Source: a virus
Taxonomy: Duplodnaviria > Caudoviricetes
Length of the DNA: 58,489 nucleotides
Reading direction: 5' to 3' (one strand)
Virus record (IMG/VR): IMGVR_UViG_3300032087_004351
Span: 1-58,489 of that record
Positions 18,001 to 57,167 of this stretch are shown here, piece after piece; the stretch's first letter is position 1; each line of letters begins with the position of its first letter. The notes beneath the pieces are model-generated. The model saw nothing but the letters and a program-made list of their open reading frames with translations, ran no database searches and had not been told where the DNA came from. The position numbers and the translations under genes were made by a program.

Positions 18001-21000
18001 GCACGTTATGCGACTTAATCCAACGCTCTCCGAGGGAGATGCGCTTCAAGCAGCATTAGTGGCTATTGAAAAAGCTTCGTTTACTACTCACAACATTGAT
18101 TTGACTAGAGATGGGGTGATTGAATTCAAAATGTCATTTAAGGGTGTTGACGGAAAAACATACACGACGACATTTAGATCAAATCAAAGGCTTGCAGACG
18201 GAACGCTTAGAGAAGTCACTGGTCTTGCTGGAGGGCCGCGAGGCGCTATCGGCAGACCTAACGAAGTACACTCTAATACCTCGGAGCAAGCTCAAAAAGA
18301 AATTATAACAAACGCCAGAAAGGTTCAACAGTCGGACTCTACTGAACACTATGTGTTGCTTCTTAGAGCCCTTACTGCAGAAAACTCCTTTAAGAATCCG
18401 CTCACGTCTGTAATACTCATAGATTCTATGCTTCAAACTATTGAAGAGTTTGGAGATGTGAAGGTTAAAGACGGAAGCAGAACGATCACTGTGAAACAAA
18501 AGGTCGCAGAGGTGCTTCAGCAGTACATGGAAAAAGTCCACTCTACCGAAGAGTGGATTGAAATAGAGACAAAATATCTAGACGGAACGGATGAAGTTTT
18601 AGACCCGTCTAAGTTTACACTGACTGTTTGGGAGAATTCGTATCAGAACAAGATAAACACCAATGTTCCAGGTCTTTCTCAGAAGAACAACATGGTTCAG
18701 ATTACCGAGGAGGGCGTCATTAGCTTCCTGACTCAGTTAAAAGAGATTGCCCCAACGTCAGGATTCGGGTTTGGCGCTCGGGGTGATTTCATCGCACGAG
18801 TTCTTGGTCCTCAAGTAGGGCTGTCTAAGATAGGCTTTGTCTCAAAGGAGTCTTTTCTTGAGTCTATAAACGACCCACTGTTTAGTGACGCTCAGCCAGG
18901 AGACGTTGTTGCGGCTTCATTTGTAAATATGTCTACAGATGCTGACGGCAACTCTCTTGTAAAGCCTGTAAACGTAAGAGACACTGTAACAAAGGCTAAA
19001 AGCAAAAACATATCGTATGAATACGGAGTCGAGGGGTCGGCTGGGTTTTATGTTCTGGGGGCATTTTTGAGCCCAACTGAGCTGGGTGTAGAGTTTACTC
19101 CTAGAGCTAGAATGACGGCCCTAGCTAAGTTGTCAGGCGCTCAAGAAGGTTCTCTGGCCGCTGAGTCTAGAAGGCTTCGTGGTAGAATTTACGTTGAGGG
19201 AGCAACTTCTTGGGAGCAGTCAACTGCTACTCACTACGGCAACATGATTGCCACTCTTTCTAGAAAGCTCCAAGACAAGTATTCTGACTTACTTCTTCTT
19301 CAGCAGGATATCGAAACGTTTAGAAAGGAGAAGCTCCCAGAGTCTCAAGACTTTGAGATGCACATGAACCTGTACTACGGCAAACTTAGAACAGACCTTG
19401 AACTAGTTGAGAAAATCCTGGACAATGTAAACAAGCTTTCTTCCAAGCGCGGAATAAAGGCAAGCGATCTTTCAGATTTCTTGTATGCGATGCACGCTAG
19501 AGAGCGTAACGCACACATAGCTAAGCAGAGGCCAGAAATTCTTGACGGCTCTGGTATGTCAGATGAGATGGCAGAAGAGATTTTAAATGAGCTCGATTCG
19601 CCAGAAATGAGAGAAGTAGCGGCGGAGGCGATGAAGTTAGTGTCGTTAACCAGACAATACATGGTTGAGGGTGGACTAGAAAAGAGGTCAACCATAGAGG
19701 CTTGGGAGGCTATGTACGAACACTACGTGCCTCTCAATGGACTGGCAGAAGACGAGTTTGACGGCGAGACGAACTCATACCCAAGCGGAGGAGCAGGCAT
19801 GGCTATTTATGGTCCGTCTTCAAAGAAAGCTAGGGGAAGATCTTCAAAGACTGGGGTAAACATCTTGGGTAGCATGGCCATGCAGACTGCTGCGGTGATG
19901 CAACGCGCAAGAAAAGACCAAGCAATGCTTTCTCTCTACAGGATGGCCGAAAACAATCCTAACGAAAATGTTTGGTCTGTACACGGACCAGGCAACAGAC
20001 TCACCGTTATGGGTCAGGAGCTTAGCGATGAGGCTATGAGAAACAGGAATGACGTTGTTCCGCTTAGGATCAACGGAAGGCAGCACTTTATCAGGTTTAA
20101 AAACGAAAACCACGCGAAGGCTCTCAAGGGTATGACCACTGAGCAGCTTAACTTCGTGACAAGGTTGTACAGCAAATATTCTACGTTCCTAAGAAATTCA
20201 TTTACGGTATGGAACCCATCGTTCTTCTTGCCTAACTTCATTCGAGATGTGCAGTCAGCATTGTTCAACGCTGCCGCTGAAATAGATAGAGAAGGGGGTA
20301 TTCTTGAAGGTATGGGTCTTACTGCAACAGAGTTCAATAAAAAACTCATGGGCACGACACTGTCCGCCTTGATGTCTCTGTTGGGCAAGGCATCTCTTGG
20401 GCTCAATATGAATGCAGAAATGCAGGGCTATGTAGATGAGTGGATGGCTGCTGGTGGAAGAACGGGCTGGTCTTATTCTGACACGCTGAATAAAGTTGTT
20501 TCAGATCTTAACGACAAATCAAGAGGTAGAACTAAAGCTGGAGCACGACTTGGTAAGGCTTGGGGATGGACTGTCGGCGGTGTCGCTTCTTACGTAGAGG
20601 GTATCAACGAAGCGTTTGAAAACTCGATAAGACTTGCCGCGTATATCGAAGCTAGAAAGGCTGGTGCTACAAAAAACAGAGCGGCAGAGCTGTCAAAGAA
20701 CATCACCGTAAACTTCAACAAGTCTGGAGAAGTCAGCCCGTCGATAAACGCCATGTACTTGTTCTTTAACGCAGCAATGCAAGGTGTTGACAGGTTTGGA
20801 CAGACGTTCATGACGCAGAAAAGAAAGGTTCCTAAGACTGAAAACAACCCAGACGGAGGAGGAAGAAGGGGTATTACAGCCGCTCAGAAGATGGGGGTTG
20901 GGATGGTTGGGATTTCATTTGCGCAGACAGTCTTTAATATTCTTATGTCAGGAAGAGATGACGACGACGAACTGTATTACAAGAAGGACATACCAGACTA

Positions 21001-22057
21001 CAGAAAGCAGAGAAACTTTGTCATCTTTACTGGACAAAGAGACAACGTCCAAGTACCTCTTCCTTATGGAATAAACATTTTCTCAAACGTAGGGATGACG
21101 CTGGCAGAACTTTGTTTTGGCATTACCGATGTAGACGATGCGGCCTTGTTCTTGGCGATATCTGCCAACTCATCGTTCAACCCTATTGCGTTTGGGCATG
21201 GAGATAATGTTGGCTCTTATGCTGCAACTACACTTTCGCCTACATTCCTAAAGCCATTCGTAGAAGTTGCAATGAATGAGACGTATTTCGGAACCCCAGT
21301 ATACAGAGAGCAGTACGATTTTGGAACTGAAGTGCCAGAATACACGCTCTCTTATAGAGCTCCAGAGTGGATGGTTGAGATAAACAAGGCGCTAAACGAA
21401 GCTAGCGGAGGCAAAGAGTATATAAGCGGGGATATGGACTTTAATCCAGATCCTATATACTACCTCATACAATCGATGCTTGGAGGCTCTGGTAAGTTCT
21501 TCTCAGAAACATTTGATCTTGGCTACACTGGATACAAGGTCATAGAAAATGCCATTAACGAAACGGATGAAAACACTGGATTCCTTGAGGCCCTTGAGAA
21601 AACAGAGAAGCCAAAGCTGAGAAGAAGCGATATACCTATCCTCAAACTTATATACGCAGATCCCAACCGATTCTATGACTTTGACTTGTTTGAGAAAAAC
21701 AGCAAAGAAGTCAGGCAGTATAGAAATCAGGCGGACAAATATCTTGAGCAAAAAACAGATGATGTCGAAGGATTGGACTTCACTGGAATTGGAAACAAAG
21801 AAGAGGGACTCATTAAAGAACTCAACGATACAGAGGCAATACTACAAGACATTAGAAATCTTCGCGTTGCTGTAAGAAATTCAGACCTTAACTACATCGA
21901 AAAAAATAACGTACTATATGACCTTGACGTAGAGGAGTCAAAGACAGTCGTGTACTTTAACGCCAAGTACTATGAACTTAGAGGGCAGTACATTGATCCA
22001 CGCCCAACAGGACTTATCTCCGAAAAGGAACTTAGAAAAGCATTTGGAGTAGAATGA
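12013..22057 (+). CDS. Giant polyvalent/ejection protein (~3347 aa), frameshifted at T10 (12066-12075); HExxH zincin-like motif and LPD38-like C-terminus
   Basis: ATG 12013 is one base out of frame with the long frame, which is open from 12002 to 22057; 'LVHELGHF' motif; 'KNITVNFNKSG...YLFFNAAMQG' resembles LPD38. Confidence 0.7.
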
Positions 22058-22760: not shown

Positions 22761-23110
22761 ACAAGACGATAGCTGCAATAGCAATCACGTCTGGCCTCGT
22801 GGGTACTGGGGCGGTCATGAATCTGTCTGAAAAAGAAGCAGCGCCAGAGGTCACTGTAGTTCAGATCAACGCAAAATGGAACCGATACAACACACGGGAG
22901 GACCTTGAATACCTTGAAGACTGTGAGTATAGGTTCGGGTGGCTTGAAGACCAGCCATACGAGCTTAGAAGCACAATCAAGTCCGTACCCGTCGTAGTCA
23001 TCTACGACGAAGGACACCCAGCCTATCAATACGTAGCTGGAATTAGCTTAGAACTAGACACACCATTCGATACTATCCAGAATCAAGTCTGGAAAGAGCT
23101 GGATGATTAA
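22757..23110 (+). CDS. Exported protein, possible thioredoxin-like fold without CxxC
   Basis: Hydrophobic N-terminus; 'VVQINAKWN' and 'IKSVPVVVIY' patterns. Confidence 0.4.
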   Translation: MNKTIAAIAITSGLVGTGAVMNLSEKEAAPEVTVVQINAKWNRYNTREDLEYLEDCEYRFGWLEDQPYELRSTIKSVPVVVIYDEGHPAYQYVAGISLELDTPFDTIQNQVWKELDD

Positions 23111-23778
23111 CGGATCAGCATTACGTGGCCTGAAGCCACGAGCTGATCTTCGGAAGACCCCATGATCGTCCAGATGTAAACGCCCTGAGGGGCGCCAGAT
23201 CCGTCCCAGCACGATCCTTTTAGTAGATCTCCGACAAATACGATTCGGCCCCTCCTGTCGTATACCTTAAGCTCAAGGTCGTCCCAGCAATACTCGTCTA
23301 CTACAGGGCAGAAGGTTTCGTTTAACCCGTCTCCATCTGGGGTAAATGAATTGGGTACGTAGATGTCATAGTCGCATCCCACGCAAGAAGCCCCAGTAAA
23401 GCAATCAACGCTGGTTACGCTGTAAACTGTGTCTGGATCAAGCGTGATGTAGTTGACGATCTCGACGGTGTCTGCGGGTAGTTGCACGTATACCGTGTCG
23501 CATGACTCTACTGGCGGCTCAAGAACTCCGCACTTCCACGCCACCCAAGCAGCCCATATGCCATCGACACCGTGGTAGTAATCACACAAGAGCTCCCCGA
23601 CTTCGTATGGGGTCGTGCAATCAAGACAGGAGCCGTCGTCCACGGTAGCTTCGTCATTGTAGTTGCATGAGTTTGGCCACATGCACCCATAAATAACTGG
23701 CGTTTCTACATAGACCGTATCACATTGACTAACAGCGATTAACGGAACAAAGAACAGGGACAGAAGAGCTTTTTTCAT
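23107..23778 (-). CDS. Secreted Cys-rich protein with a T9SS type-B (gliding motility-associated, CHU_C-like) C-terminal domain
   Basis: Signal peptide; 'GCMWPNSCNYNDEATVDDGSC' module; C-terminal 'YVPNSFTPDGDGLNETF...VYDRRG...WDG...GVYIW...GHVMLIR'. Confidence 0.8.
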   Translation of the reverse strand: MKKALLSLFFVPLIAVSQCDTVYVETPVIYGCMWPNSCNYNDEATVDDGSCLDCTTPYEVGELLCDYYHGVDGIWAAWVAWKCGVLEPPVESCDTVYVQLPADTVEIVNYITLDPDTVYSVTSVDCFTGASCVGCDYDIYVPNSFTPDGDGLNETFCPVVDEYCWDDLELKVYDRRGRIVFVGDLLKGSCWDGSGAPQGVYIWTIMGSSEDQLVASGHVMLIR

Positions 23779-32748: not shown

Positions 32749-33400
32749 TCTGCTGGTCATCAATCCCGTGGATGCGGCACTCAAAATTCAAGTTCTCCAT
32801 TAACCCCTTGAGGTTGTTGGTAACCGATTCTGCCTCGTAGCTACCCACCTTGTCCCGAATCCAGTCGAGGTCGAGGTGTTCAGAGAGGTCGACGTACTGC
32901 GTGTACTCCACCTCGAAGTTACCCATGCACTCCCTGTCGCTGATTTCAATGTCAGAGGCATTTTCAAGTTCATAGCAAGCGTCCTCAACACCCTGCTTGA
33001 TACCCTCACGGAAGATGGCGATGGCTACGTCACGAGGGATGACTGGCATCGTGGGCGTCAACACTTGGCCCTTCAGTTGGTCTTCAAGGGACTTTGTTTG
33101 TTCGAGTTCTGCCTTGAGATTGTCTACTTCTTTCTTCCACGCTTCTGCTTGGGATGTCTTGACGGTGAGGTCGCGCTCCAGCCGTACGATGTCGTCGTAC
33201 TGACCCTGCACCTTGGATTCGAGCTCTTGTACCTGCTTGGTCAGTGACTCTTCACGTCCTGTGCGCTCTTCGTATTCTTTCTTTGCCATTTCTTGCCTGA
33301 ATTGCATTGATTCGATTGTTGATTGTGCCGCAGAGATAGCGTTCTCTGCGTAGCGGATAGCCGCTTCGAGTTCGTTCTTGGATTCTTGAAATGAGTTCAT
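32738..33400 (-). CDS. Coiled-coil hypothetical protein
   Basis: 220 aa with a long heptad-rich N-terminal half. Confidence 0.65.
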   Translation of the reverse strand: MNSFQESKNELEAAIRYAENAISAAQSTIESMQFRQEMAKKEYEERTGREESLTKQVQELESKVQGQYDDIVRLERDLTVKTSQAEAWKKEVDNLKAELEQTKSLEDQLKGQVLTPTMPVIPRDVAIAIFREGIKQGVEDACYELENASDIEISDRECMGNFEVEYTQYVDLSEHLDLDWIRDKVGSYEAESVTNNLKGLMENLNFECRIHGIDDQQNED

Positions 33401-33585
33401 TGTAATGTTGCTTGGAAGATTGAATTGACGCAGTCAATGACTACGCTTTTGAGTTGTGGTGAAGTTTGTAAATGTTTCTTGAGTTGTCGTGTAGTTTCGG
33501 GTGCTACACGTTCGATGTGCTCTACTCGGATGCGGTAGTCCCCGTCGTATGGGTTAGCACTGAGAAGGTCGTTTACTCGTATCAT
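33397..33585 (-). CDS. Hypothetical protein
   Basis: 62 aa, ATGA-coupled to the next gene. Confidence 0.55.
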   Translation of the reverse strand: MIRVNDLLSANPYDGDYRIRVEHIERVAPETTRQLKKHLQTSPQLKSVVIDCVNSIFQATLQ

Positions 33586-33587
33586 GT

Positions 33588-33743
33588 TTAAAAGTTCTTA
33601 TGGAGGTACCCCGACAACATCAGTTGTTGTTTCACGTCTGAGGTTGGCGTCTTGAGGATTTTGCGTACACCCTCGTCTTCTGAGGCGAGCACGGGATCGA
33701 TATTGTATTGTTCGCAAAGGAACATGAAGTCATTGATTTTCAT
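33588..33743 (-). CDS. Small hypothetical protein (51 aa, not in ORF track)
   Basis: MKINDFMFLCEQYNIDPVLASEDEG...; start overlaps the stop of 33740..34387. Confidence 0.55.
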   Translation of the reverse strand: MKINDFMFLCEQYNIDPVLASEDEGVRKILKTPTSDVKQQLMLSGYLHKNF

Positions 33744-34387
33744 GATTCAAAGGTTACATTTTTGTCTAACCAATCTTTAAGGTCGTCGGCTACGTGGAAC
33801 GGGTTGTCGTAGCTATCAGACCCCTTGGGCTTGGGGATACGGAAAGCGTGCATCACGTAGTCGTCAACGTCGATGAAGGCGTGCTGGCGGTAGTACACAT
33901 CCGAGATGAAGTCCGTGAGCTGCTCAAGGTTGTTGATGGCATCTGTCGTGGTGTCCATGACATCACTTGATACACGAGCCACAAGTGACATACACAGAGG
34001 GGTGTAGTCCCATGCTTGGGTGGCTTCGAGTTGATTCCACGTCAACCAACATGACTCGGTAGACTCACCTCGGTTGGACATATCAAGCTCGATGACTTGG
34101 AATACCTCGACACTAACGTCGTCGCCATACTCTGCCACGTATTCGTCGTGGGTCATGTCTGACGGGACGCAAGCCTTGTAGTTGTCGTAGTCACGAGTCA
34201 TCGTGACGTACACCGCATCTTCGGTTGCGTGGTCGATGAGTACGCACATATCATCCTTGCGGTAGTCGTCAAGGATTTGAGCGATGTGTCTGTCTGCGAA
34301 ACCCCGCTTGGGGAAGAACTCGCAGGTGGTGTCGGAGTACCCTTCAAAGAGTCCTGCGACGGCGTGGATTACTGCATATTGTTTCAT
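33740..34387 (-). CDS. Hypothetical early protein
   Basis: 215 aa, preceded by the CAAACTTCAA leader motif. Confidence 0.65.
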   Translation of the reverse strand: MKQYAVIHAVAGLFEGYSDTTCEFFPKRGFADRHIAQILDDYRKDDMCVLIDHATEDAVYVTMTRDYDNYKACVPSDMTHDEYVAEYGDDVSVEVFQVIELDMSNRGESTESCWLTWNQLEATQAWDYTPLCMSLVARVSSDVMDTTTDAINNLEQLTDFISDVYYRQHAFIDVDDYVMHAFRIPKPKGSDSYDNPFHVADDLKDWLDKNVTFES

Positions 34388-34418
34388 GGTGTATTGAATT
34401 GAAGTTTGTAAAAATTAG

Positions 34419-34481
34419 AAGGGAGGTTGGGATTCGAACACAACTGCCATCCGTAGATGTACGCACCGACTGCGCTCCCTT
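34419..34481 (-). ncRNA. tRNA-like element lacking an anticodon loop
   Basis: AAGGGAG/CUCCCUU 7-bp outer stem; CGCA-GUCGG-UGCG arm; CAUC-UACG-GAUG arm; T-arm with GUUCGAAUC. Confidence 0.65.
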
Positions 34482-34534
34482 GATTGAGGTGGGGGTGTAG
34501 TGACGTTTCACCAAGCACCCCCGATGGTCAAACT

Positions 34535-34678
34535 TCAATCAACCAAATCCTCTTGTTCGTCTTGCCACTTGTCGTAGGCATCATCGACTGCGTTGTTCAA
34601 CGCCTCCGCCTCTGCTCGATCGATTGGTTGGCCGAACATCTCAAATATTTTCATCACTTCTTTTACAGGGTCTTTCAT
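34535..34678 (-). CDS. Small acidic protein (47 aa, not in ORF track)
   Basis: MKDPVKEVMKIFEMFG...EDLVD; ATGA-coupled to the upstream gene. Confidence 0.5.
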   Translation of the reverse strand: MKDPVKEVMKIFEMFGQPIDRAEAEALNNAVDDAYDKWQDEQEDLVD

Positions 34679-34872
34679 GCTAATTGTTTATGTGATTCCC
34701 AATAGTTAATTTCTTCGTCGTGGATGCGGAAGCTGCACGACTCTCCCATCGTGTCGTTCCACACCCTGTCTATCCACACTCCGTAGTCGTCTGGCGCTCC
34801 CATCACAACGGATGCGCTGAATCCAGATTCTTCAAGTGCTTCGACTGCGCGTTCGCACTGCTCTTGTGTCAT
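34675..34872 (-). CDS. Hypothetical early protein
   Basis: MTQEQCERAVEALEESG..., start reassigned; ATGA-coupled to a 40-aa ORF at 34869..34991. Confidence 0.55.
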   Translation of the reverse strand: MTQEQCERAVEALEESGFSASVVMGAPDDYGVWIDRVWNDTMGESCSFRIHDEEINYWESHKQLA

Positions 34873-34987
34873 TGTTCTTTCGGTTTGGTGTTGGTTAACT
34901 GCTCCGCAAGGGACTTGTTGTGCTTGATTAGTTCTGACTCTTCCATCTTGGAGAGTTCGACGATGTTGTTGAAGATGTCTTTGATGT

Positions 34988-35302
34988 TCATAGGTCAATG
35001 ATTACGCCCTTCTCTTCGAGGGCTTCGATTATATATTCAGGGAGTTCGAAGCATCCATCGTACCCCGTAAGGCGCACATCTCCGTTGTCATCCCAATAAA
35101 CTTCGAGGATGCCGCCTGCATAGAAGCGGTCACCTGACGTGTCAAGGTCGTATGTTTCGTACCATCCGCCATACTGATGGTCAGGGTCAATCCCAATAGA
35201 GGTGTCCATCTCCACGTTCAACTCTGCGTCAAGGTCTACGTCGTAGGCTGTCCGCATTGACACGAAGGGGAGTGTGCTTTTGAAGGAGTGTGTAAATTTC
35301 AT
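34988..35302 (-). CDS. Hypothetical early protein
   Basis: 104 aa with 'LTGYDGCFELP'; coupled to both neighbours. Confidence 0.6.
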   Translation of the reverse strand: MKFTHSFKSTLPFVSMRTAYDVDLDAELNVEMDTSIGIDPDHQYGGWYETYDLDTSGDRFYAGGILEVYWDDNGDVRLTGYDGCFELPEYIIEALEEKGVIIDL

Positions 35303-35529
35303 TGCTCTGAATTTTCGGCATCGTTAGCCCATTCAACAAGGGTGTCAATCACCGCATCCTTTGCGTCGTCGCTCATGAATGTGGAGTTGGAGACGAGAGA
35401 GGCCATGCCCTTCACGTCCTCGGGCACAAGCCGAGCGCACCGATTCAGGTCGTCGAGATGCTTTCCGAAGTGGAGGTCATTGAGTGCGAGCACTGCCGCA
35501 CCGACGGGGCGTTTGAAAAAGTTATCCAT
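35299..35529 (-). CDS. Hypothetical early protein
   Basis: MDNFFKRPV..., start reassigned. Confidence 0.5.
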   Translation of the reverse strand: MDNFFKRPVGAAVLALNDLHFGKHLDDLNRCARLVPEDVKGMASLVSNSTFMSDDAKDAVIDTLVEWANDAENSEQ

Positions 35530-35785
35530 TGTACTTGTCGTTGATTCGTTGTTGTGTTTCTTCGCAGCAGGCAATCCATGCCTCCATGTTTACGAAGGAG
35601 ATTTTGCCTTCCTCGCGGTCCTTTGCTGCCTGTTCGAGGATGACCTCTTTGTTTTCGAGGTAGTTGTCAAGGCCCTTTTGCAGGCAGTCGAGCACCACCA
35701 TCTGCACGAGTGCCCCGTGCTTGTTGTACCCAGTCATGAGGTGTTCCATGAACTCCCCGTTCGTCATTTGTTTGATGTTGTCCAT
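35522..35785 (-). CDS. Hypothetical early protein
   Basis: MDNIKQ... directly after a tandem CAAACTTCAA leader motif. Confidence 0.6.
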   Translation of the reverse strand: MDNIKQMTNGEFMEHLMTGYNKHGALVQMVVLDCLQKGLDNYLENKEVILEQAAKDREEGKISFVNMEAWIACCEETQQRINDKYNG

Positions 35786-35813
35786 CGGTTTTGAAGTTTG
35801 AAGTTTGACATTT

Positions 35814-35876
35814 GAGAGGTGTTGTATATATACTCTCTTCACTACGTTCAGAGAGAGTATATATACTAACACTCTC
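35814..35876 (-). repeat. Long hairpin element, copy 1
   Basis: 33-bp core 35829-35861 is identical to 37083-37115; flanked by inverted arms. Confidence 0.9.
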
Positions 35877-35878
35877 TA

Positions 35879-36067
35879 TTATTTGAAGTCACGAGTGGAG
35901 ATGCCGAGTTCGGTAAGGTCAAGGTAAATGTCCTCGTCGAAGGCGTCGCACACCAATGCGACAGCCTCGACGTCATCGGTGTAGTAGTAGTACTCGTATG
36001 CCTCCGCAAGTTCCTCGTGAGATAGGTCACGGAAGGGGTTGAACATATTGCTGAACTGAAACGTCAT
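35879..36067 (-). CDS. Small acidic early protein
   Basis: 62 aa, Asp/Glu/Tyr-rich. Confidence 0.55.
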   Translation of the reverse strand: MTFQFSNMFNPFRDLSHEELAEAYEYYYYTDDVEAVALVCDAFDEDIYLDLTELGISTRDFK

Positions 36068-36183
36068 GACTTGTTGTTTTTCAGGTTAATAGATTCGATG
36101 GCGTAACGGGAGAGCATGAACGCTCCTGTGATAAAGATACCGCATACAAGTGCGAGGTCAATGTAAATTACTGCTTGAAGCAT
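36064..36183 (-). CDS. Small single-TM peptide (39 aa, not in ORF track)
   Basis: MLQAVIYIDLALVCGIFITGAFMLSRYAIESINLKNNKS; leader motif upstream, ATGA overlap downstream. Confidence 0.6.
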   Translation of the reverse strand: MLQAVIYIDLALVCGIFITGAFMLSRYAIESINLKNNKS

Positions 36184-36206
36184 AGATTGAAGTTTGATGG
36201 TTTAAC

Positions 36207-36377
36207 TTATTGATTATCAACAACCTTGAAGCTGGTTGTCTTCACGGTCTGACTTGTGCCCAGCCACTTGTTTCGAGCTAGGTCTTTAGCCAACGCAAGG
36301 TGTTCAGCGTAGATGAAGTGCTCGGTCCAATCGTCGCGGTCACGGCCTCTGTAGGTAATGTATCTGTATTTGTTCAT
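36207..36377 (-). CDS. Hypothetical early protein
   Basis: MNKYRYITYRG..., ATGA-coupled to the upstream gene. Confidence 0.55.
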   Translation of the reverse strand: MNKYRYITYRGRDRDDWTEHFIYAEHLALAKDLARNKWLGTSQTVKTTSFKVVDNQ

Positions 36378-36739
36378 TTGAGTCTGATTTCTTCGTTGTT
36401 CCAAAGGTCGTAGATGGCAATCTCGTCGCGGTCCTTGCCCAAGGCGATCGCCTCTGCGCGGTCCTGCACGATGTCAGAGAGTTCGAGGTATGCAAATCCG
36501 TCGTTGTCAACCCATCCTCCGACGAGGAGCCGAGAAGCCTTGCCTCGTGCCTGCTCACGAAGATGAGCCATGATGTCGTAGGCAAAATCGTTCCAAGACA
36601 ACCTATCTGCCTTGACCGTGTAGCACTTGGACGCTCCGCCCACTGCGAAGCCACCACCTTCGTATGTGCTCAGGTCGTGCTTGACGCTGAACCCGTCCCA
36701 TGCTTGAATCTTGAAGTATAGCTCTTGAAGTTTGTTCAT
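36374..36739 (-). CDS. Hypothetical early protein immediately downstream of the hammerhead ribozyme
   Basis: MNKLQELYF...GGWVDNDGFAYLELSD...AIYDL; ATG follows the leader motif. Confidence 0.65.
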   Translation of the reverse strand: MNKLQELYFKIQAWDGFSVKHDLSTYEGGGFAVGGASKCYTVKADRLSWNDFAYDIMAHLREQARGKASRLLVGGWVDNDGFAYLELSDIVQDRAEAIALGKDRDEIAIYDLWNNEEIRLK

Positions 36740-36758
36740 CGTAAATGAATTGAAGTTT

Positions 36759-36812
36759 GACATAGACACCACCTTCGTGGTGTTTCGCGCACTCAGCGCT
36801 CATCAGTATGCC
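36759..36812 (-). ncRNA. Hammerhead ribozyme (type I topology)
   Basis: GGCAUA-CUGAUGA-GCGC-UGAGU-GCGC-GAAA-CACCAC-GAAG-GUGGUG-UC^UAUGUC: complete catalytic core, three stems and a GUC cleavage triplet. Confidence 0.93.
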
Positions 36813-36879
36813 TGCTCTCGAAGTAGTGGAGGACTACGCAAAGGATAGCCGCCCCGTAAATGACATACAAGTATGTCAT
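36793..36879 (-). CDS. Small single-TM peptide (28 aa, not in ORF track) overlapping the ribozyme
   Basis: MTYLYVIYGAAILCVVLHYFESRHTDER; ATGA-coupled to the upstream ORF. Confidence 0.55.
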   Translation of the reverse strand: MTYLYVIYGAAILCVVLHYFESRHTDER

Positions 36880-37025
36880 CGTGTTCCGATTAAATCGGCC
36901 AAGGTCATCTGTTCATCGCACGTCAGCTCGTCCCACTCGCTGGTGGACGTGATGGCGCTGAAGGGGAGAGAAGAGTCAAGGAGTTCAGCAATAAGCTGAC
37001 GGCGTGTATCTGCAAAGGTTTGCAT
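36876..37025 (-). CDS. Small early protein (49 aa)
   Basis: MQTFADTRRQLI... directly after the leader motif. Confidence 0.55.
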   Translation of the reverse strand: MQTFADTRRQLIAELLDSSLPFSAITSTSEWDELTCDEQMTLADLIGTR

Positions 37026-37066
37026 GAGAATTGAATTTGAAGTTTGACAATGAGAGAACGTTTCCA

Positions 37067-37129
37067 AGAGTGTCTTAGTATGTATACTCTCTTCACTACG
37101 TTCAGAGAGAGTATACATACAAGACCTCT
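37067..37129 (-). repeat. Long hairpin element, copy 2
   Basis: Same 33-bp core as copy 1; outer arms differ in sequence but still pair. Confidence 0.9.
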
Positions 37130-37136
37130 AATGGGT

Positions 37137-37229
37137 TTAGAAGTTGTGCCGTAGCTCAATCACAGCGAGGATGCAGAGCGTAGCTGCGAGCGGGAGGACC
37201 GCTCCGTAGTAAAAGATTTCAATAGTCAT
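37137..37229 (-). CDS. Small single-TM peptide (30 aa, not in ORF track)
   Basis: MTIEIFYYGAVLPLAATLCILAVIELRHNF; preceded by aattcatctacgATG. Confidence 0.6.
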   Translation of the reverse strand: MTIEIFYYGAVLPLAATLCILAVIELRHNF

Positions 37230-37239
37230 CGTAGATGAA

Positions 37240-37353
37240 TTAAAGGTCAAAGAAAAGTTCGATGGCTTCTCGAACAATCACGAAGGCACAGGGCACCAGC
37301 ACAAGAGCGCAGATGAACACGGGGACTGATTCAAAATAATCGTAAAAGTTCAT
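37240..37353 (-). CDS. Small single-TM peptide (37 aa, not in ORF track)
   Basis: MNFYDYFESVPVFICALVLVPCAFVIVREAIELFFDL; preceded by aattcatttacaATG. Confidence 0.6.
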   Translation of the reverse strand: MNFYDYFESVPVFICALVLVPCAFVIVREAIELFFDL

Positions 37354-37363
37354 TGTAAATGAA

Positions 37364-37876
37364 TTAGAGTTCAAAAGGAAGTTCGTCGATGCTGACGAAG
37401 TCAGCAGAAGAAGGAATCGTAGATTCCATCGCGACCGCTAGGCAGGCCGTGAGGGCTTCAATCTTCGCCTCAAGAGCTTCGATTCGGCTTGACTCGACTG
37501 CCTTCGCCTTGGCCTCTGCTCGCTTGGCCGCCTTGGCCGTGGCGCCAGTGTGCTCACTCACGGCCTTGGCTGAAGCGGCGGCTTTAGCTACGTTGGCCTT
37601 CTTGGCCTTCTTCGAAGGCTTCACAGGACCAACTTCGTTGGTTCGCATGGCGGCTCGGTCCATTTGGTCAGCAACCTTCTGAGCCGAAGTTCTCTTAGTC
37701 GTCTTACGACGACGGCGTGTGGTCTTCTTTGAAGACTCTTTGACCTCTTCGAGGTTGTTGATGAAGTCCAGCGCTTCTTGCAGAAGCTTCGCGGCTGCGG
37801 CCTTGCGGGCTGCGGTTGGACGGAAAGAAGCCTGATTTACTGCCTTACGGCAGTCTGAAAAATTGAAGTTGTTCAT
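37364..37876 (-). CDS. Lys/Ala-rich basic protein, first gene of the early arm
   Basis: 170 aa from ATG 37876 after the leader motif; histone-H1-like composition. Confidence 0.65.
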   Translation of the reverse strand: MNNFNFSDCRKAVNQASFRPTAARKAAAAKLLQEALDFINNLEEVKESSKKTTRRRRKTTKRTSAQKVADQMDRAAMRTNEVGPVKPSKKAKKANVAKAAASAKAVSEHTGATAKAAKRAEAKAKAVESSRIEALEAKIEALTACLAVAMESTIPSSADFVSIDELPFEL

Positions 37877-37927
37877 TGTAAATGAATTTGAAGTTTGACC
37901 TAAGGACCGACTCTCAAAATCCTTTAG

Positions 37928-37984
37928 GAGATAATAGATAGAAGAGAGAGTCATAGACTCCTCTCTCTCTTCTATCTATATCTC
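37928..37984. repeat. Long inverted repeat upstream of the first early gene
   Basis: atagatagaagagagag (37934-37950) pairs with ctctctcttctatctat (37963-37979). Confidence 0.85.
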
Positions 37985-38550
37985 TATTTCGGCAACACCT
38001 TATTCCTTTATCTAAGGATAAAGTAATAGATGAAGGGAAATCTCGGTAGTCGCAGGAAGCTAACAAGTTAGCTACGTAGGCTACTGCACTGCACACCGCT
38101 CCGCCAAGTAGATTTTGCTATTGATATTTGTATTGCTAATAGCTATGGCTATTAGAATTGTCAACACAAACTAGTTGGTTAGTGAGCAGTCAAGTTGGAG
38201 TAATACTCCAAGCCGATAGGTCGAAGGGTGTGATTGTCATTGCATTATACCTAGGACAACGTACAACTTCGTCGGAATCCATCGAGATTAAAGCATAGCT
38301 TTAATGCTTCAGTCATAAATGACTGGGTCTGAGGGTTCTAGGACAAAAAGCTACTTTAAAAAAGTAGCTCGATTGAGGGGAGGGGGGTCCGAAAACTCGT
38401 TTTCGATTAGGGGATGGTCGTCCTATATATACATATTATCCCCACCATATACATTACTCACAAATTTTTTGCGATCATGCGGATTTCGCCCAAAAATCCG
38501 CTAACTATTGCAGTCTCAATGCGTTATACGGTGCTATTAAAGTAAAACTT
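37985..38550. other. Non-coding divergence region with clustered palindromes (candidate genome end/origin)
   Basis: Strand switch point; at least seven short inverted repeats; G-rich run at about 38377-38387. Confidence 0.55.
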
Positions 38551-38578
38551 TAGGGTTGACTTTTAAAAATTTCTGTTA

Positions 38579-38586
38579 TAACTTTG
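38579..38586 (+). promoter_or_regulatory. -7 promoter box with upstream TTG (-33-like) at 38556
   Basis: TAACTTTG at the start of the + strand arm. Confidence 0.65.
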
Positions 38587-38597
38587 CGATCGTGAGA

Positions 38598-38975
38598 ATG
38601 AAACGGTTGTTTAGTGGGATGCTTGATGGCATCCACACGGATACGGTTCTCATATTCACTGTTAAATACGCGATAGCTGTACTTATGCCCCACCTAGTCA
38701 AGATATCTATAGAAGGATACAAGCGGTTCTCTCCAGATCGGGGGAACGACTGCAACATTATAGAGTCAAACAGGATATCTATGCGTGATGTCGATCACCC
38801 TGTGGTGGGTGTCGACAATCACGGGAACGTAAAGGTGATGTTCCCAGAGAGGGAGTACCGATTTACAGGAAGTCGCGTCCTTGAGATACCAGTAGATAGA
38901 GTATCTGATATGAATGAGTCCGACATCAAGGAAATGGCTATTAAAACAGCCAAGGACATGGGATTTCTCAAGTAA
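38598..38975 (+). CDS. Hypothetical protein
   Basis: ORF after the promoter; start uncertain. Confidence 0.5.
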   Translation: MKRLFSGMLDGIHTDTVLIFTVKYAIAVLMPHLVKISIEGYKRFSPDRGNDCNIIESNRISMRDVDHPVVGVDNHGNVKVMFPEREYRFTGSRVLEIPVDRVSDMNESDIKEMAIKTAKDMGFLK

Positions 38976-38986
38976 CTTTATAGTGT

Positions 38987-38994
38987 TATATTTG
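38987..38994 (+). promoter_or_regulatory. -7 promoter box
   Basis: TATATTTG, 4 nt before ATG 38999. Confidence 0.7.
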
Positions 38995-38998
38995 CCCC

Positions 38999-39952
38999 AT
39001 GGCAAAAGCTAGAAGAAAACTACGCAGACAGTTGATGAAGAAAGCCAAGAAAGGCTATCTGACTCCTGGTGAGCGTGAAGACTTGATGCAGCTCGACAGA
39101 GAGGTAAACAAAGCGAACAGACAGGCCGCCGCTGTAGGTGTACCTGCATTGGCTACGGCACTTGCCATAGCGTCTAAAAGCAATATGTATCAAGATTGGA
39201 GGTTTCAAAAGGATCTTGAGGAGGCGATTGAGAAGGGATTTATTAGTGTAGCTGACGATGATGAAGCTACCCCTAAAGAAGCGCCTACTGATGAAGCTAC
39301 CCCTAAAGAAACTCCTGAAGGTGTCTCTGACACCACCCCAACCGAAGGAAGTATTGATGATCAATTAAGAGGTATTCAGGAAAAAAACAATAAAAAGTTT
39401 ACTAGACCAGACTTTGTTCCTAGTAAACGTGACGAAGAGGAAGAAGATTATTTTGAAAAAGAAGCACTTCAGATACGTAGGGAGATGGATCGCTATTCGA
39501 ATTGGCCATACACGCCTGGAACTGAAGAACGACTTGGCGATATGAGCGGTGAAGAGTTAGCTCAAATGATGGCAATAAGGGAAACGGGACCGTATAATCT
39601 TCGCCCAGAAGAAGAAGATAAGTATCTTGACTATCTAGGCCTTGGTCAAGATCAGAGCAAGCCCCGCCCAACAAAAATGCAAAGGAGAATGATGAGGCGC
39701 GGATTTGATCCTGTAGAAGGTGAGTTTTATTCGAAAGAGTCTAATCCTGTTATGATTGGCTCACCTCGCCCAGAATCAAGACTAAAAGAACCCGAAATGC
39801 GTACACCTCCTTTTTCTCAAATGCGACCAGGCCAAGGAGAGGATATTATGGACCCTAACTTCGGCCAAATGCCGCAGAAAACGGGTGGGTATACACCGTT
39901 TCTCTCAAGCTTGAGAAACAAATTCCAAAAAAGACTTACAGGTAAAAGATAA
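38999..39952 (+). CDS. Hypothetical late protein, low complexity
   Basis: 317 aa; internal 22-bp duplication at 39259-39280 and 39289-39310 (DEATPKE twice). Confidence 0.6.
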   Translation: MAKARRKLRRQLMKKAKKGYLTPGEREDLMQLDREVNKANRQAAAVGVPALATALAIASKSNMYQDWRFQKDLEEAIEKGFISVADDDEATPKEAPTDEATPKETPEGVSDTTPTEGSIDDQLRGIQEKNNKKFTRPDFVPSKRDEEEEDYFEKEALQIRREMDRYSNWPYTPGTEERLGDMSGEELAQMMAIRETGPYNLRPEEEDKYLDYLGLGQDQSKPRPTKMQRRMMRRGFDPVEGEFYSKESNPVMIGSPRPESRLKEPEMRTPPFSQMRPGQGEDIMDPNFGQMPQKTGGYTPFLSSLRNKFQKRLTGKR

Positions 39953-57141: not shown

Positions 57142-57167
57142 AGGCCCTACGGGGCCTTTTTCTTTTT
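57142..57167 (+). terminator. Rho-independent terminator
   Basis: aggccc-tacg-gggcct followed by ttttcttttt; TATATTTG promoter box follows at 57170-57177. Confidence 0.88.

What the first reader, a model, noticed from the sequence alone, without database searches (positions are those of the whole stretch)
34388..37990. Possible early-mRNA processing system: different structured elements each precede a shared leader motif
Seen: five CAAACTTCAA-led early genes are each preceded by a structured element. These are the long inverted repeat (37928-37984), hairpin copy 2 (37067-37129), the hammerhead (36759-36812), hairpin copy 1 (35814-35876) and the tRNA-like element (34419-34481). Established: T7 early mRNA is segmented by RNase III hairpins, and tRNA-like folds are cut by RNase P/Z. 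Inference: this phage may segment one early transcript by three routes (self-cleavage, RNase III-type and tRNA-processing enzymes) so that each piece starts near a standard leader. I know of no description of this combination, but I cannot search the literature.
Basis: inference. Interest (0 to 1): 0.85.

Follow-up and report, generated by a model that had tools for sequence, protein, structure and literature searches.

The report
Interchangeable RNA modules punctuate phage operon
In a marine phage of Bacteroidota-type bacteria, a self-cutting hammerhead RNA, long hairpins and a tRNA look-alike take turns at the same spot in front of a fixed leader before gene blocks, which gives a natural test of what such RNA elements do in phages.

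Summary
The window is a complete 58.5 kb phage. Nine exact CAAACTTCAA copies lie in 34.4-37.9 kb, eight of them on the minus (gene) strand.

The hammerhead is genuine by sequence and covariation: 23 variants, 382 of 382 cells paired, 8 of 17 pairs compensatory, core invariant, and the cut falls 5 nt before the leader. The tRNA-like fold, both hairpins and the long inverted repeat also covary.

In relatives, orthologous genes are preceded by a hammerhead in some genomes and by a hairpin or tRNA-like element in others. An unrelated high-GC phage mixes hammerhead II, pistol, a tmRNA-like tRNA domain and the same hairpin apex.

Cleavage, a single transcript and "early" timing are not shown. The hairpin apex is also the core of a short repeat found in many bacterial phyla, and G-U asymmetry does not favour the sense strand. 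The leader could instead be a promoter.

Hammerheads flanking prophage genes are already published. This is a new variant of a known kind. Best reading: RNA punctuation/insulation, about 0.48.

The parts
37928..37984 (-). Long inverted repeat (about 22-bp stem, apex GGAGUCUAUGACUC) before the first gene of the leftward block
   Evidence: Fold. In an alignment of 9 relatives, 18 of 35 predicted pairs have compensatory changes, and several G-U pairs lie on this strand.
37902..37924 (-). Second small hairpin with conserved loop GAGAGUCG, between the long repeat and the leader
37888..37897 (-). Leader copy 1 (CAAACUUCAA), 11 nt before the ATG of gene 37876..37364
37067..37129 (-). Hairpin A copy 2. 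Core UGAACGUAGUGAA at 37104..37092: tandem G-A, two pairs, GNA triloop
37037..37046 (-). Leader copy 2, before gene 37025..36876
36759..36812 (-). Type I hammerhead. Stem I GGCAUA/UAUGUC, core CUGAUGA, stem II GCGC/GCGC, GAAA, stem III 7 bp, C17 at 36765. Predicted cut between 36765 and 36764, 5 nt before the leader; the last stem I base is the first leader base
36750..36759 (-). Leader copy 3, before gene 36745..36374
36187..36196 (-). Leader copy 4, 3 nt before the ATG of a 39-aa ORF, with no structured element upstream
35814..35876 (-). Hairpin A copy 1 (core at 35850..35838). It starts directly after the upstream stop codon
35791..35807 (-). Leader copy 5, a tandem overlapping duplicate (CAAACUUCAAACUUCAA), before gene 35785..35522
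34527..34538 (-). Anti-leader: the minus strand reads UUGAAGUUUGAC and overlaps the stop codon of gene 34678..34535. It can pair over about 12 bp with leader copy 6 across the tRNA-like module
   Evidence: 13 unique copies stand in the same context in relatives.
34491..34522 (-). GC-rich hairpin (GGGGGUG...GUGAAACGUCAC...CACCCCC). In most relatives it is followed by a U run, which makes it terminator-like
34419..34481 (-). tRNA-like element: 7-bp acceptor stem, D arm with GG, T arm with UUCGAAU loop. The anticodon arm is reduced to a 4-bp stem plus tetraloop; no CCA
   Evidence: Not called as a tRNA by ARAGORN or by any Rfam family.
34399..34408 (-). Leader copy 6, before gene 34387..33740

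Best explanation
The first 3.5 kb of the leftward gene block of this SD-less (Bacteroidota-type) phage is punctuated by interchangeable RNA modules. Each module sits directly 5' of a fixed, G-free translation leader (U-CAAACUUCAA, then 10-12 nt, then AUG), and each leader heads a block of translationally coupled small genes.

Each module gives the block a defined, unstructured 5' context and gives the upstream RNA a structured 3' end.
- The hammerhead does this by cutting itself 5 nt before the leader, leaving a 5'-OH on the leader and a 2',3'-cyclic phosphate plus stems II and III on the upstream piece.
- The tRNA-like element does it as a substrate of RNase P and RNase Z.
- The long hairpins (A, B and the first inverted repeat) do it as RNase III-type double-stranded sites, or at least as end-protecting and insulating stems.

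Shown: the anatomy, the covariation, the interchange at orthologous sites, and recurrence of the same mix in an unrelated phage.

Inferred: every cleavage event, the single transcript, the timing, and the leader's role in ribosome loading.

My sub-odds: hammerhead active 0.85; tRNA-like processed 0.55; hairpins cleaved 0.35.
For: 1. Hammerhead. In 23 distinct sequences, 382 of 382 cells are paired and 8 of 17 pairs have compensatory changes in all three stems. CUGAnGA, GAAA and GUC are invariant, and the cut site is always 5 nt before the leader. A covariance model finds one copy in the window and 30 strong hits in relatives' loci, some of them duplicates of the same contig.

2. Interchange. 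Of 107 unique leader-gene pairs, the same gene family is preceded by a hammerhead, hairpin A, hairpin B or a tRNA-like element in different relatives. The first direct example is L007 (hammerhead) against L006 (hairpin) before the same gene.

3. Hairpin A. 16 of 19 pairs are compensatory in 39 sequences from several unrelated phage lineages. In viral contigs, 64 of 139 copies have long stems; of those 64, 29 are sense to the coding strand, 1 is antisense and 34 are unclear. 30 of 31 multi-copy loci keep one strand.

4. Unrelated phage. The high-GC phage L056/L051 carries Hammerhead_II (45.8 bits, cut-off 37), Pistol (57.4, cut-off 34.5), a tmRNA-model tRNA-like domain (61-65 bits, cut-off 47) and four copies of hairpin A. 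These lie between small genes, all on one strand within each locus.

5. tRNA-like fold. RNAalifold returns a cloverleaf with 7 of 21 pairs compensatory. The anticodon arm varies freely in length and loop.

6. The hairpins are not terminators. None of the three is called as a whole hairpin with a U tract: there is no call at hairpins 1 or 2, and the only call on the long repeat is its apex, with the stem's own 3' arm taken as the tail. True GC-stem plus U-tract terminators exist elsewhere in the phage.

7. Leader. U at -1 in 94%, then an invariant 10-mer, then about 10 G-free nt. The ATG lies 10-12 nt downstream in 84 of 113 copies. Only 2 of 61 genes have an SD-like 4-mer. Bacteroidetes lack SD sequences and tune initiation by mRNA structure (PMC6847099, abstract start seen in the listing).

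8. Motif placement. The motif also occurs just after the ATG in 6 unique cases (ATGT-CAAACTTCAA). A promoter for that gene could not sit there.

9. One contig from an RNA library bridges the hairpin 3' arm, the leader and the gene (35554-35855). This is weak, because DNA carry-over is not excluded.
Against: - No RNA end data. The only RNA run is held as contigs and shows no ends.
- Hammerhead and tRNA-like fold energies are no better than shuffles.
- Rfam gives no hit for the hammerhead in the 3.9 kb scan. The narrow scan gives only RAGATH-1-hammerhead at 21.5 bits, against a cut-off of 56.3.
- The G-U asymmetry test for hairpin A does not favour the sense strand. Relatives: 0 sense against 38 antisense G-U pairs in 50 hairpins. 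Other phages: 21 against 28 in 42 hairpins. A looser count gave 66 against 157. Only the count of 1x1 mismatches favoured sense: 64 G-U against 3 A-C.
- The same 19-mer apex is the core of a short-stem repeat on both strands in more than 120 bacterial contigs of many phyla. The hairpins could therefore be REP-like or mobile DNA.
- Hairpin B replaces the tandem G-A with Watson-Crick pairs, so the apex is not essential in this family.
- One leader has no structure before it.
- No canonical TAnnTTTG box lies on the minus strand between 31.1 and 39 kb, so the promoter of the block is unknown.
- An invariant 10-mer is more typical of a promoter than of a translation leader.
Confidence: 0.48

Rival explanations
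1. Promoter cassettes. CAAACTTCAA is, or overlaps, a phage-specific promoter that gives very short leaders. The upstream structures are 3'-end elements of the preceding unit: stabilising hairpins, a hammerhead or tRNA-like 3'-end maker. This would be a moron- or PeSL-like set of autonomous cassettes.
For: - The 10-mer is invariant in 113 unique copies.
- It heads each coupled gene block.
- In the same phage, the plus-strand genes carry TATATTTG boxes 4-5 nt (5 cases) or 14-18 nt (3 cases) before the ATG, twice just after a terminator. So a motif close to the ATG can be a promoter here.
- No canonical -7 box lies on the minus strand between 31.1 and 39 kb.
- DNA contigs of related strains delete or swap gene cassettes exactly at hairpin/leader borders, for example 35530 to 35812.
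Against: - The motif bears no likeness to TAnnTTTG in the sense direction.
- No phage RNA polymerase was found: Pfam, PHROGs, PDB sequences and the Atlas show only a polyvalent LPD protein. This search was not exhaustive.
- Nothing upstream of position -1 is conserved.
- The motif sits after the ATG in 6 unique cases, and 1-4 nt before it in 10.
- The hammerhead stem I includes the first leader base and the conserved U at -1.
- The hairpins have no U tract.
Confidence: 0.2
2. Only the hammerhead, and perhaps the tRNA-like fold, is a cleavage site. The long hairpins are not processed. They are REP-like intercistronic stabilisers, or selfish strand-specific single-stranded-DNA palindromes that settle in the few permissive intergenic sites.
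For: - The 19-mer apex occurs in more than 120 bacterial contigs (the scan stopped at its limit). 150 of 152 copies there have short stems; 41 are sense, 28 antisense and 81 unclear; 13 of 26 multi-copy loci keep one strand. Many pair with an inverted partner, as in REPIN doublets.
- Hairpins come and go at the same site in relatives: tRNA-like alone, or tRNA-like plus hairpin.
- C-GNA-G triloops and tandem G-A are stable in DNA as well (recalled).
- G-U asymmetry gives no support for sense RNA.
Against: - Phage copies differ from the bacterial ones. 64 of 139 have long covarying stems, 29 are sense against 1 antisense, and 30 of 31 multi-copy loci keep one strand.
- Stems differ between copies while keeping pairing.
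- The hairpins occupy exactly the slot of ribozymes before orthologous genes, and they sit alongside ribozymes in an unrelated phage.
- In three unrelated phages (L016, L017, L058) the SD of the next gene lies inside the 3' arm.
Confidence: 0.22
3. Antisense units. The complement TTGAAGTTTG is a weak Bacteroidota -7 box (GAAGTTTG against TAnnTTTG) that fires plus-strand transcripts, and these end in the hairpins.
For: - 7 of 8 positions match.
- On the plus strand, hairpin 1 is followed by a U-rich tail.
- Antisense G-U counts are not lower than sense counts.
Against: - It gives the hammerhead and the tRNA-like element, which are strand-specific, no function.
- The tandem G-A becomes a U-C mismatch on that strand.
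- In other phages the apex is sense to the genes.
- The one sense-oriented copy of the box is followed by a terminator-like hairpin in relatives.
Confidence: 0.05

Closest known systems
Clustered hammerhead ribozymes flanking genes in prophages (Perreault et al. 2011, PMC3088659; passages seen)
   Same: Hammerheads lie between single genes or short gene blocks of phage origin. The authors proposed that long phage transcripts are cut into gene-length mRNAs and showed cleavage in vitro for three arrays.
   Different: Here a single hammerhead shares its slot with non-ribozyme modules (long hairpins, tRNA-like folds) before orthologous genes. It is also fused at a fixed 5-nt distance to an invariant leader, in an SD-less host lineage.
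Ribozyme-associated neighbourhoods and RAGATH motifs (Weinberg et al. 2015; paper not held, recalled; context from section 13 of the 2019 review PMC6765202)
   Same: Self-cleaving ribozymes of different classes cluster near each other and near phage genes. The window's hammerhead partly matches the RAGATH-1-hammerhead model.
   Different: I could not check whether hairpin A is one of the published RAGATH candidates. It matches no Rfam 15 family.
RNase III segmentation of T7 early mRNA (recalled)
   Same: Intercistronic hairpins in one early transcript. Stems of about two helical turns.
   Different: Cleavage is untested here. The hairpins have a conserved apex (tandem G-A plus GNA triloop) that bacterial RNase III is not known to need.
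tRNA punctuation of mitochondrial transcripts, and MALAT1/mascRNA 3'-end formation (recalled)
   Same: A tRNA or tRNA-like fold between coding segments serves as an RNase P/Z cutting signal.
   Different: The context is a phage, the anticodon arm is degenerate and variable, and relatives carry up to three such folds in tandem.
PeSL cassettes of T4-type phages, and morons (recalled)
   Same: A stem-loop plus a conserved short motif borders small early genes and marks the breakpoints of cassette exchange. Strain joints fall at hairpin/leader borders.
   Different: In PeSLs the motif is a sigma-70 early promoter. Here the motif does not resemble the host promoter.
REP/REPIN elements (recalled)
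   Same: The same 19-mer is a short palindromic repeat, often in inverted doublets, in many bacterial genomes.
   Different: Phage copies have long stems, keep one strand and lie sense to the genes.

Membership tests
Hammerhead ribozyme (type I) | Three-way junction with core C3-U4-G5-A6-N7-G8-A9, G12-A13-A14, an A15.1-U16.1 pair and a non-G at position 17 | tested here: met
   All core positions are invariant in 23 sequences; position 7 is U or C. The MFE of the window copy is the junction.
Hammerhead ribozyme (type I) | Stems I-III supported by covariation | tested here: met
   382 of 382 cells paired; 8 of 17 pairs compensatory; 0 of 500 shuffles reach the covariation score.
Hammerhead ribozyme (type I) | Reaches the Rfam gathering score of a hammerhead family | tested here: not met
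   No hammerhead hit in the 3.9 kb scan. RAGATH-1-hammerhead scores 21.5 bits against a cut-off of 56.3 in the narrow scan.
Hammerhead ribozyme (type I) | Self-cleavage | not testable with these tools
   Needs in vitro transcription.
tRNA | Called by ARAGORN or the Rfam tRNA model; 7-nt anticodon loop | tested here: not met
   No call. The anticodon arm is a 4-bp stem plus tetraloop in the window, and of arbitrary length in relatives.
tRNA-like RNase P/Z substrate | 7-bp acceptor stem stacked on a T arm with a UUCGAAU-type loop, and a D loop with GG | tested here: met
   (7 of 21 pairs compensatory, n=9)
tRNA-like RNase P/Z substrate | Cleavage by RNase P and RNase Z | not testable with these tools
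   Needs an enzyme assay.
RNase III processing hairpin (T7 type) | Intercistronic double-stranded stem of about 20 bp or more | tested here: met
   Stems of about 22-28 bp with 1-2 bulges.
RNase III processing hairpin (T7 type) | RNase III-dependent cleavage | not testable with these tools
   No RNA end data.
Intrinsic terminator | GC-rich stem directly followed by a U tract | tested here: not met
   No terminator call at hairpins 1 or 2, and the call at 37961-37947 is only the apex of the long repeat. Genuine examples are at 57142-57157 and before 944.
Bacteroidota sigma-A promoter | TAnnTTTG (-7 box) upstream of the gene in the sense direction | tested here: not met
   No match on the minus strand between 31.1 and 39 kb.
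REP/REPIN repeat | Short palindromes on both strands, often as inverted doublets | tested here: not met
   Met for bacterial copies but not for phage copies.

The most novel reading that the evidence does not exclude
Hairpin A (any long stem capped by U-GA-AC-GNA-GU-GA-A) is a new, widespread RNA processing module. It would be functionally equivalent to hammerhead and pistol ribozymes, either as the recognition cap for a universal bacterial nuclease or, less likely, as a self-cleaving motif. On this reading, phages of many host phyla use a plug-and-play set of cutters (ribozyme, hairpin, tRNA mimic) to give each gene block a free 5' end. In SD-less Bacteroidota, that end would carry a dedicated ribosome-loading leader.
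Probability: 0.15. Interest if true: 0.85.

Novelty: new variant of a known kind. Interest (0 to 1): 0.66.

Why it matters
The 2019 review calls the biological roles of bacterial and phage self-cleaving ribozymes "largely elusive" (PMC6765202, section 13).

This phage family supplies a natural substitution series. The same gene, with the same leader, is preceded by a hammerhead in some genomes and by a plain long hairpin or a tRNA mimic in others. This implies that the elements share one job, most simply to make or isolate an RNA end, and it turns that idea into a direct experiment.

The finding also flags an unannotated hairpin motif present in many phage lineages and, in a short form, in many bacterial phyla. 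And it gives a compact natural counterpart of the synthetic insulators (ribozyme, RNase III site, tRNA) used in genetic engineering (recalled).

Tried and rejected
- **Rfam.** The whole window at gathering score gives only two true tRNAs. The 3.9 kb region at E up to 10 gives only chance miRNA/snoRNA hits. Narrow scans of hairpin 1 and of the tRNA-like region match no real family. Thirteen relatives' loci at gathering score give only tRNAs.
- **Phage blastn** of 33000-39500 found no match.
- **RNA evidence.** One metatranscriptome run held 21% of the sampled words. It is stored as contigs, so ends, strand and level cannot be read. Stretches without cover there say nothing.
- **A shared protein partner for hairpin A.** All-against-all blastp of ORFs from 55 unrelated hairpin-bearing loci plus the window found no cluster that includes the window.
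- **A phage RNA polymerase** that might use the leader as a promoter. None was found in 18 of the larger proteins by Pfam, in 10 early proteins by Pfam, in 10 proteins by PHROGs, in 2 giant proteins against PDB sequences, or by a DxDxD-type regex (two DxDGD strings in the 1873-aa protein, not followed up). The Atlas places the 3213-aa protein among polyvalent LPD proteins. About 40 small ORFs were not scanned.
- **The crAss-like phage phi14:2 preprint.** It reports no common motif upstream of its early transcripts, so it gives no parallel (passages).
- **G-U asymmetry** as a test of the folded strand was inconclusive or contrary.
- **Literature.** Searches on RAGATH/hammerhead/phage, ribozyme/bacteriophage/hairpin/tRNA-like, self-cleaving/phage/polycistronic/intergenic from 2019 and the 15-letter apex (0 papers) found no description of this combination or of hairpin A. 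Subscription papers, the 2015 RAGATH paper and all supplements could not be seen and may bear on this.
- **Sampling bias.** Loci were fetched with the hairpin A pattern or with one protein, so hairpin A is over-represented. Rows for one search were pre-selected for at least 12 of 16 ungapped flanking pairs. Its apex columns are invariant by construction of the search pattern.

Full report
**What the window is.**
- The window is a whole virus record: 58,489 bp, direct terminal repeats, rated complete.
- A primase-helicase with a BT4734-like N-domain is most similar to those of Maribacter, Cellulophaga, Flavobacterium and Nonlabens phages. There are 41 matching records; the best is 35% identical over 91% of the query.
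- One gene carries a CHU_C type IX secretion domain (E 1.3e-10).
- Only 2 of 61 genes have an SD-like 4-mer upstream.
- DNA runs that hold the stretch are seawater or marine metagenomes.
- The host is therefore very probably a marine member of the Bacteroidota.
- Genes from 38 kb down to 23 kb run on the minus strand.

**The observation.**
- CAAACTTCAA has nine exact copies, all between 34399 and 37897. Eight are on the minus strand. With one mismatch allowed there are 21 matches, against 6.9 +/- 2.5 in shuffles.
- Six copies lead genes. The sixth (36187-36196) follows a stop codon with no structure.
- One copy lies inside a gene (36725-36734), directly after the ATG of the gene behind the hammerhead.
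- One is a tandem duplicate (35791 and 35798).
- One is inverted (34529-34538).
- Across the window and its relatives, 113 unique copies show U at -1 in 94%, the invariant 10-mer, then about ten G-free nucleotides. The ATG follows after 10-12 nt in 84 of 113 and after 1-6 nt in 11. In 10 there is no ATG within 30 nt.

**The hammerhead.**
- On the minus strand, 36812..36759 reads GGCAUA-CUGAUGA-GCGC(UGAGU)GCGC-GAAA-CACCAC(GAAG)GUGGUG-UC/UAUGUC. The MFE fold is the three-way junction.
- Rfam misses it in a wide scan. A narrow scan gives only a sub-threshold match to RAGATH-1-hammerhead (21.5 bits). Its folding energy is unremarkable (z -1.2).
- The decisive evidence is comparative. Twenty-three distinct versions from relatives align without ambiguity. 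Every core position is invariant, 382 of 382 cells pair, and 8 of 17 pairs carry compensatory changes in all three stems.
- A covariance model finds one copy in the window and 30 strong hits in relatives' loci. Some contigs were fetched twice, so these 30 are not all independent.
- The cut site is always 5 nt before the leader. The last base pair of stem I uses the leader's first C.

**Relatives and the replacement test.**
- A protein search found two relatives. Before the same gene, one (L007) has a covarying hammerhead and the other (L006) has a long hairpin.
- A pattern scan with the hairpin apex then brought in many more contigs. Thirty-seven held loci carry the leader.
- Among 126 unique leader copies, the upstream 100-120 nt classify as follows: hairpin A 40, hammerhead 24, inverted repeat of the first gene 10, hairpin B 6, tRNA-like alone or with a hairpin 11, another hairpin A variant 1, anti-leader context 13, other or none 21.
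- Grouping 107 leader-gene pairs by the downstream protein gives these counts:
  - MTKLQELYF family: 16 hammerhead, 2 hairpin A, 1 tRNA-like, 1 other.
  - MDKHIRRQL: 12 hairpin A, 5 hairpin B.
  - MDNFFKRPVG: 12 hairpin A, 2 hammerhead.
  - MDIKDMTNDEF: 12 hairpin A, 1 other.
  - First gene: 10 inverted repeat, 1 hairpin B, 1 other.
  - MKQYAVIHA: 7 of 7 tRNA-like, with or without a hairpin.
- The sample is biased towards hairpin A by how it was fetched, but replacement in both directions is plain.

**Hairpin A.**
- The two window copies share the apex CUCUGAACGUAGUGAAGAG on stems of about 25 bp that differ by compensated changes.
- The apex reads as U-A, tandem G-A/A-G, A-U, C-G and a GNA triloop.
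- The 19-mer occurs in 90 IMG/VR stretches, including several lineages that share no protein with this phage.
- In 39 sequences, 16 of 19 pairs show compensatory change. The rows were pre-selected for pairing, and the apex is fixed by the search pattern.
- No Rfam family matches.
- In viral contigs, 64 of 139 copies have long stems. Of those 64, 29 are sense to the coding strand, 1 is antisense and 34 could not be called. Thirty of 31 multi-copy loci keep one strand.
- In three unrelated phages the SD of the next gene lies in the 3' arm.

**A complication.**
- The same 19-mer is found in more than 120 bacterial contigs from many phyla; the scan stopped at its limit.
- There it is the core of a short-stem unit (GTCA-apex-TC), often followed by an inverted partner. 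150 of 152 copies have short stems; 41 are sense, 28 antisense and 81 unclear; 13 of 26 multi-copy loci keep one strand. This looks like a REP/REPIN-type repeat.
- The G-U asymmetry test, which should favour the transcribed strand if the RNA folds, does not.
  - With a strict helix definition, relatives give 0 sense against 38 antisense G-U pairs (n=50). Other phages give 21 against 28 (n=42).
  - A looser count gave 66 against 157.
  - Only the count of 1x1 mismatches favoured sense: 64 G-U against 3 A-C.
- Hairpin B in relatives keeps the 3' strand (AUGAAGAG) but pairs it fully. The tandem G-A is therefore dispensable in this family.
- So the hairpins are structurally selected and gene-oriented in phages, but whether they act as RNA is inferred, not shown.

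**The tRNA-like element.**
- ARAGORN and Rfam do not call it.
- RNAalifold on nine versions returns a cloverleaf: a 7-bp acceptor stem, a 4-bp D stem with GG in its loop, and a T arm with UUCGAAU. The "anticodon" arm has a covarying stem and a loop that is anything from a tetraloop to about 100 nt. Seven of 21 pairs are compensatory.
- Relatives carry up to three different tRNA-like folds in tandem at this junction.
- The module is bracketed by an inverted copy of the leader (UUGAAGUUUGAC, overlapping the upstream stop codon; 13 unique copies). This copy can pair with the leader over about 12 bp. The two positions beyond the 10-mer vary only among purines that still pair with U.
- A GC hairpin stands next to the anti-leader. 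In most relatives it is followed by a U run, so it may attenuate transcription there.

**The first inverted repeat.**
- Nine versions give a 22-bp stem with 18 of 35 predicted pairs compensatory.
- Here there are more G-U pairs on the sense strand than A-C oppositions. This suggests that transcription starts upstream of 37984.
- Both the apex and the loop of the next small hairpin contain GAGUC.

**Recurrence elsewhere.**
- In an unrelated high-GC phage (L056, with relative L051), Rfam at gathering score finds a type II hammerhead, a pistol ribozyme and an 83-nt match to the tmRNA model that is only its tRNA-like domain.
- Four hairpin A copies lie between the same small genes, all on one strand within each locus. 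Each is followed by an SD and an ATG.
- The mixture of ribozyme, hairpin A and tRNA mimic is therefore not peculiar to one lineage.

**Terminators and promoters.**
- The early hairpins are not called as terminators and have no U tract. Classical terminators exist elsewhere in the genome.
- TAnnTTTG, the Bacteroidota -7 box (recalled), is not enriched overall: 36 matches against 35 expected.
- TATATTTG, however, occurs nine times on the plus strand. It sits 4-5 nt before an ATG in five cases and 14-18 nt before in three. This suggests host promoters with leaderless or very short-leader mRNAs for those genes.
- None lies on the minus strand between 31.1 and 39 kb. The promoter of the studied block is therefore unknown, and the leader-as-promoter rival gains weight.
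- Against that rival:
  - no phage polymerase was found;
  - nothing upstream of position -1 is conserved;
  - the motif stands after the ATG in six unique cases;
  - the motif is physically part of the hammerhead stem.

**Reading.**
- I take the elements as intercistronic RNA punctuation. Each fixes the 5' context of a G-free leader in a host whose ribosomes ignore SD sequences and depend on unstructured initiation regions (PMC6847099, abstract start only).
- The hammerhead cuts by itself, the tRNA mimic through RNase P/Z, and the hairpins through RNase III or by simply insulating and protecting ends.
- The same borders are also the breakpoints of cassette exchange between strains (DNA contigs skip 35530 to 35812, with a leader-like 22-mer between).
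- Overall confidence is 0.48. The promoter-cassette reading gets 0.20, the hairpins-not-processed reading 0.22, and antisense units 0.05.

**Novelty.**
- Hammerheads flanking phage genes, and the idea that they process long transcripts, are in print (PMC3088659, passages; PMC6765202, section 13).
- Four literature searches did not find any of the following in print: the substitution series with hairpins and tRNA mimics, the fused invariant leader, or the hairpin A motif.
- The 2015 RAGATH paper and all supplements could not be read.
- I rate the finding a new variant of a known kind, with interest 0.66.

Noticed in passing
window 944, 11991, 38987, 40406, 45341, 46503, 49120, 52464, 57170 (+): TATATTTG, the canonical Bacteroidota -7 box, occurs nine times on the plus strand. 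It lies 4-5 nt before an ATG in five cases and 14-18 nt before in three. Two of the boxes come directly after a GC hairpin plus T run. This suggests leaderless or near-leaderless mRNAs for the structural and other plus-strand genes.
   Followed up: partly
L098-L217 (genome contigs): The 19-mer apex is the core of a short repeat, GTCA-CTCTGAACGNAGTGAAGAG-TC. It is often paired with an inverted partner (GATTCTTCGC...CTCAGAATGAC). It occurs in more than 120 contigs of Ignavibacteria, Syntrophomonadaceae, Bacteroidota, Chloroflexi, CPR and other groups, with several copies per genome. It is REPIN-like and unusually conserved across phyla.
   Followed up: partly
L008, L010, L014, L022, L025, L027, L030, L073, L089 (junction orthologous to window 34400-34540): Relatives carry arrays of two or three different tRNA-like folds, with large insertions in the anticodon or D arms. 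None is called as a tRNA.
   Followed up: partly
window 12416-22057 (+): A 3213-aa protein with an LPD38 domain whose nearest Atlas neighbours are viral LPD proteins. It is probably a large polyvalent virion protein.
   Followed up: partly
window 35530-35812 and 34816-35812: DNA contigs from seawater runs skip or replace gene cassettes exactly at hairpin/leader borders. This points to strain-level modular exchange.
   Followed up: no
L008 10640-10670, L015, L027, L065, L067, L085, L094 (just 5' of the hammerhead): A small covarying hairpin with a GUA triloop overlaps the upstream stop codon (for example UUGAUAU-GUA-AUAUCAA) directly before the hammerhead. It may correspond to the extra 5' part of the RAGATH-1 model. 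It is absent in the window.
   Followed up: no
window 36793-36879 (-): A 28-aa hydrophobic ORF would run into the hammerhead core (…CAT ACT GAT GAG CGC TGA). In relatives the upstream gene ends before the ribozyme.
   Followed up: no
window 37947-37961 and 37905-37915 (-): GAGUC occurs both in the apex palindrome of the first inverted repeat (GAGUC-UAU-GACUC) and in the loop of the next hairpin. It is conserved in 9 relatives.
   Followed up: no
L018, L039; L009, L036, L043, L062, L063, L086, L096: In other viral contigs the 19-mer sits in exact 70-bp tandem repeats. In high-GC phages it sits on short stems, sometimes doubled, followed by CT-rich iterated repeats. Its role there is unknown.
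   Followed up: no
window 23107-23778 (-): A phage gene with a CHU_C type IX secretion sorting domain (E 1.3e-10).
   Followed up: no
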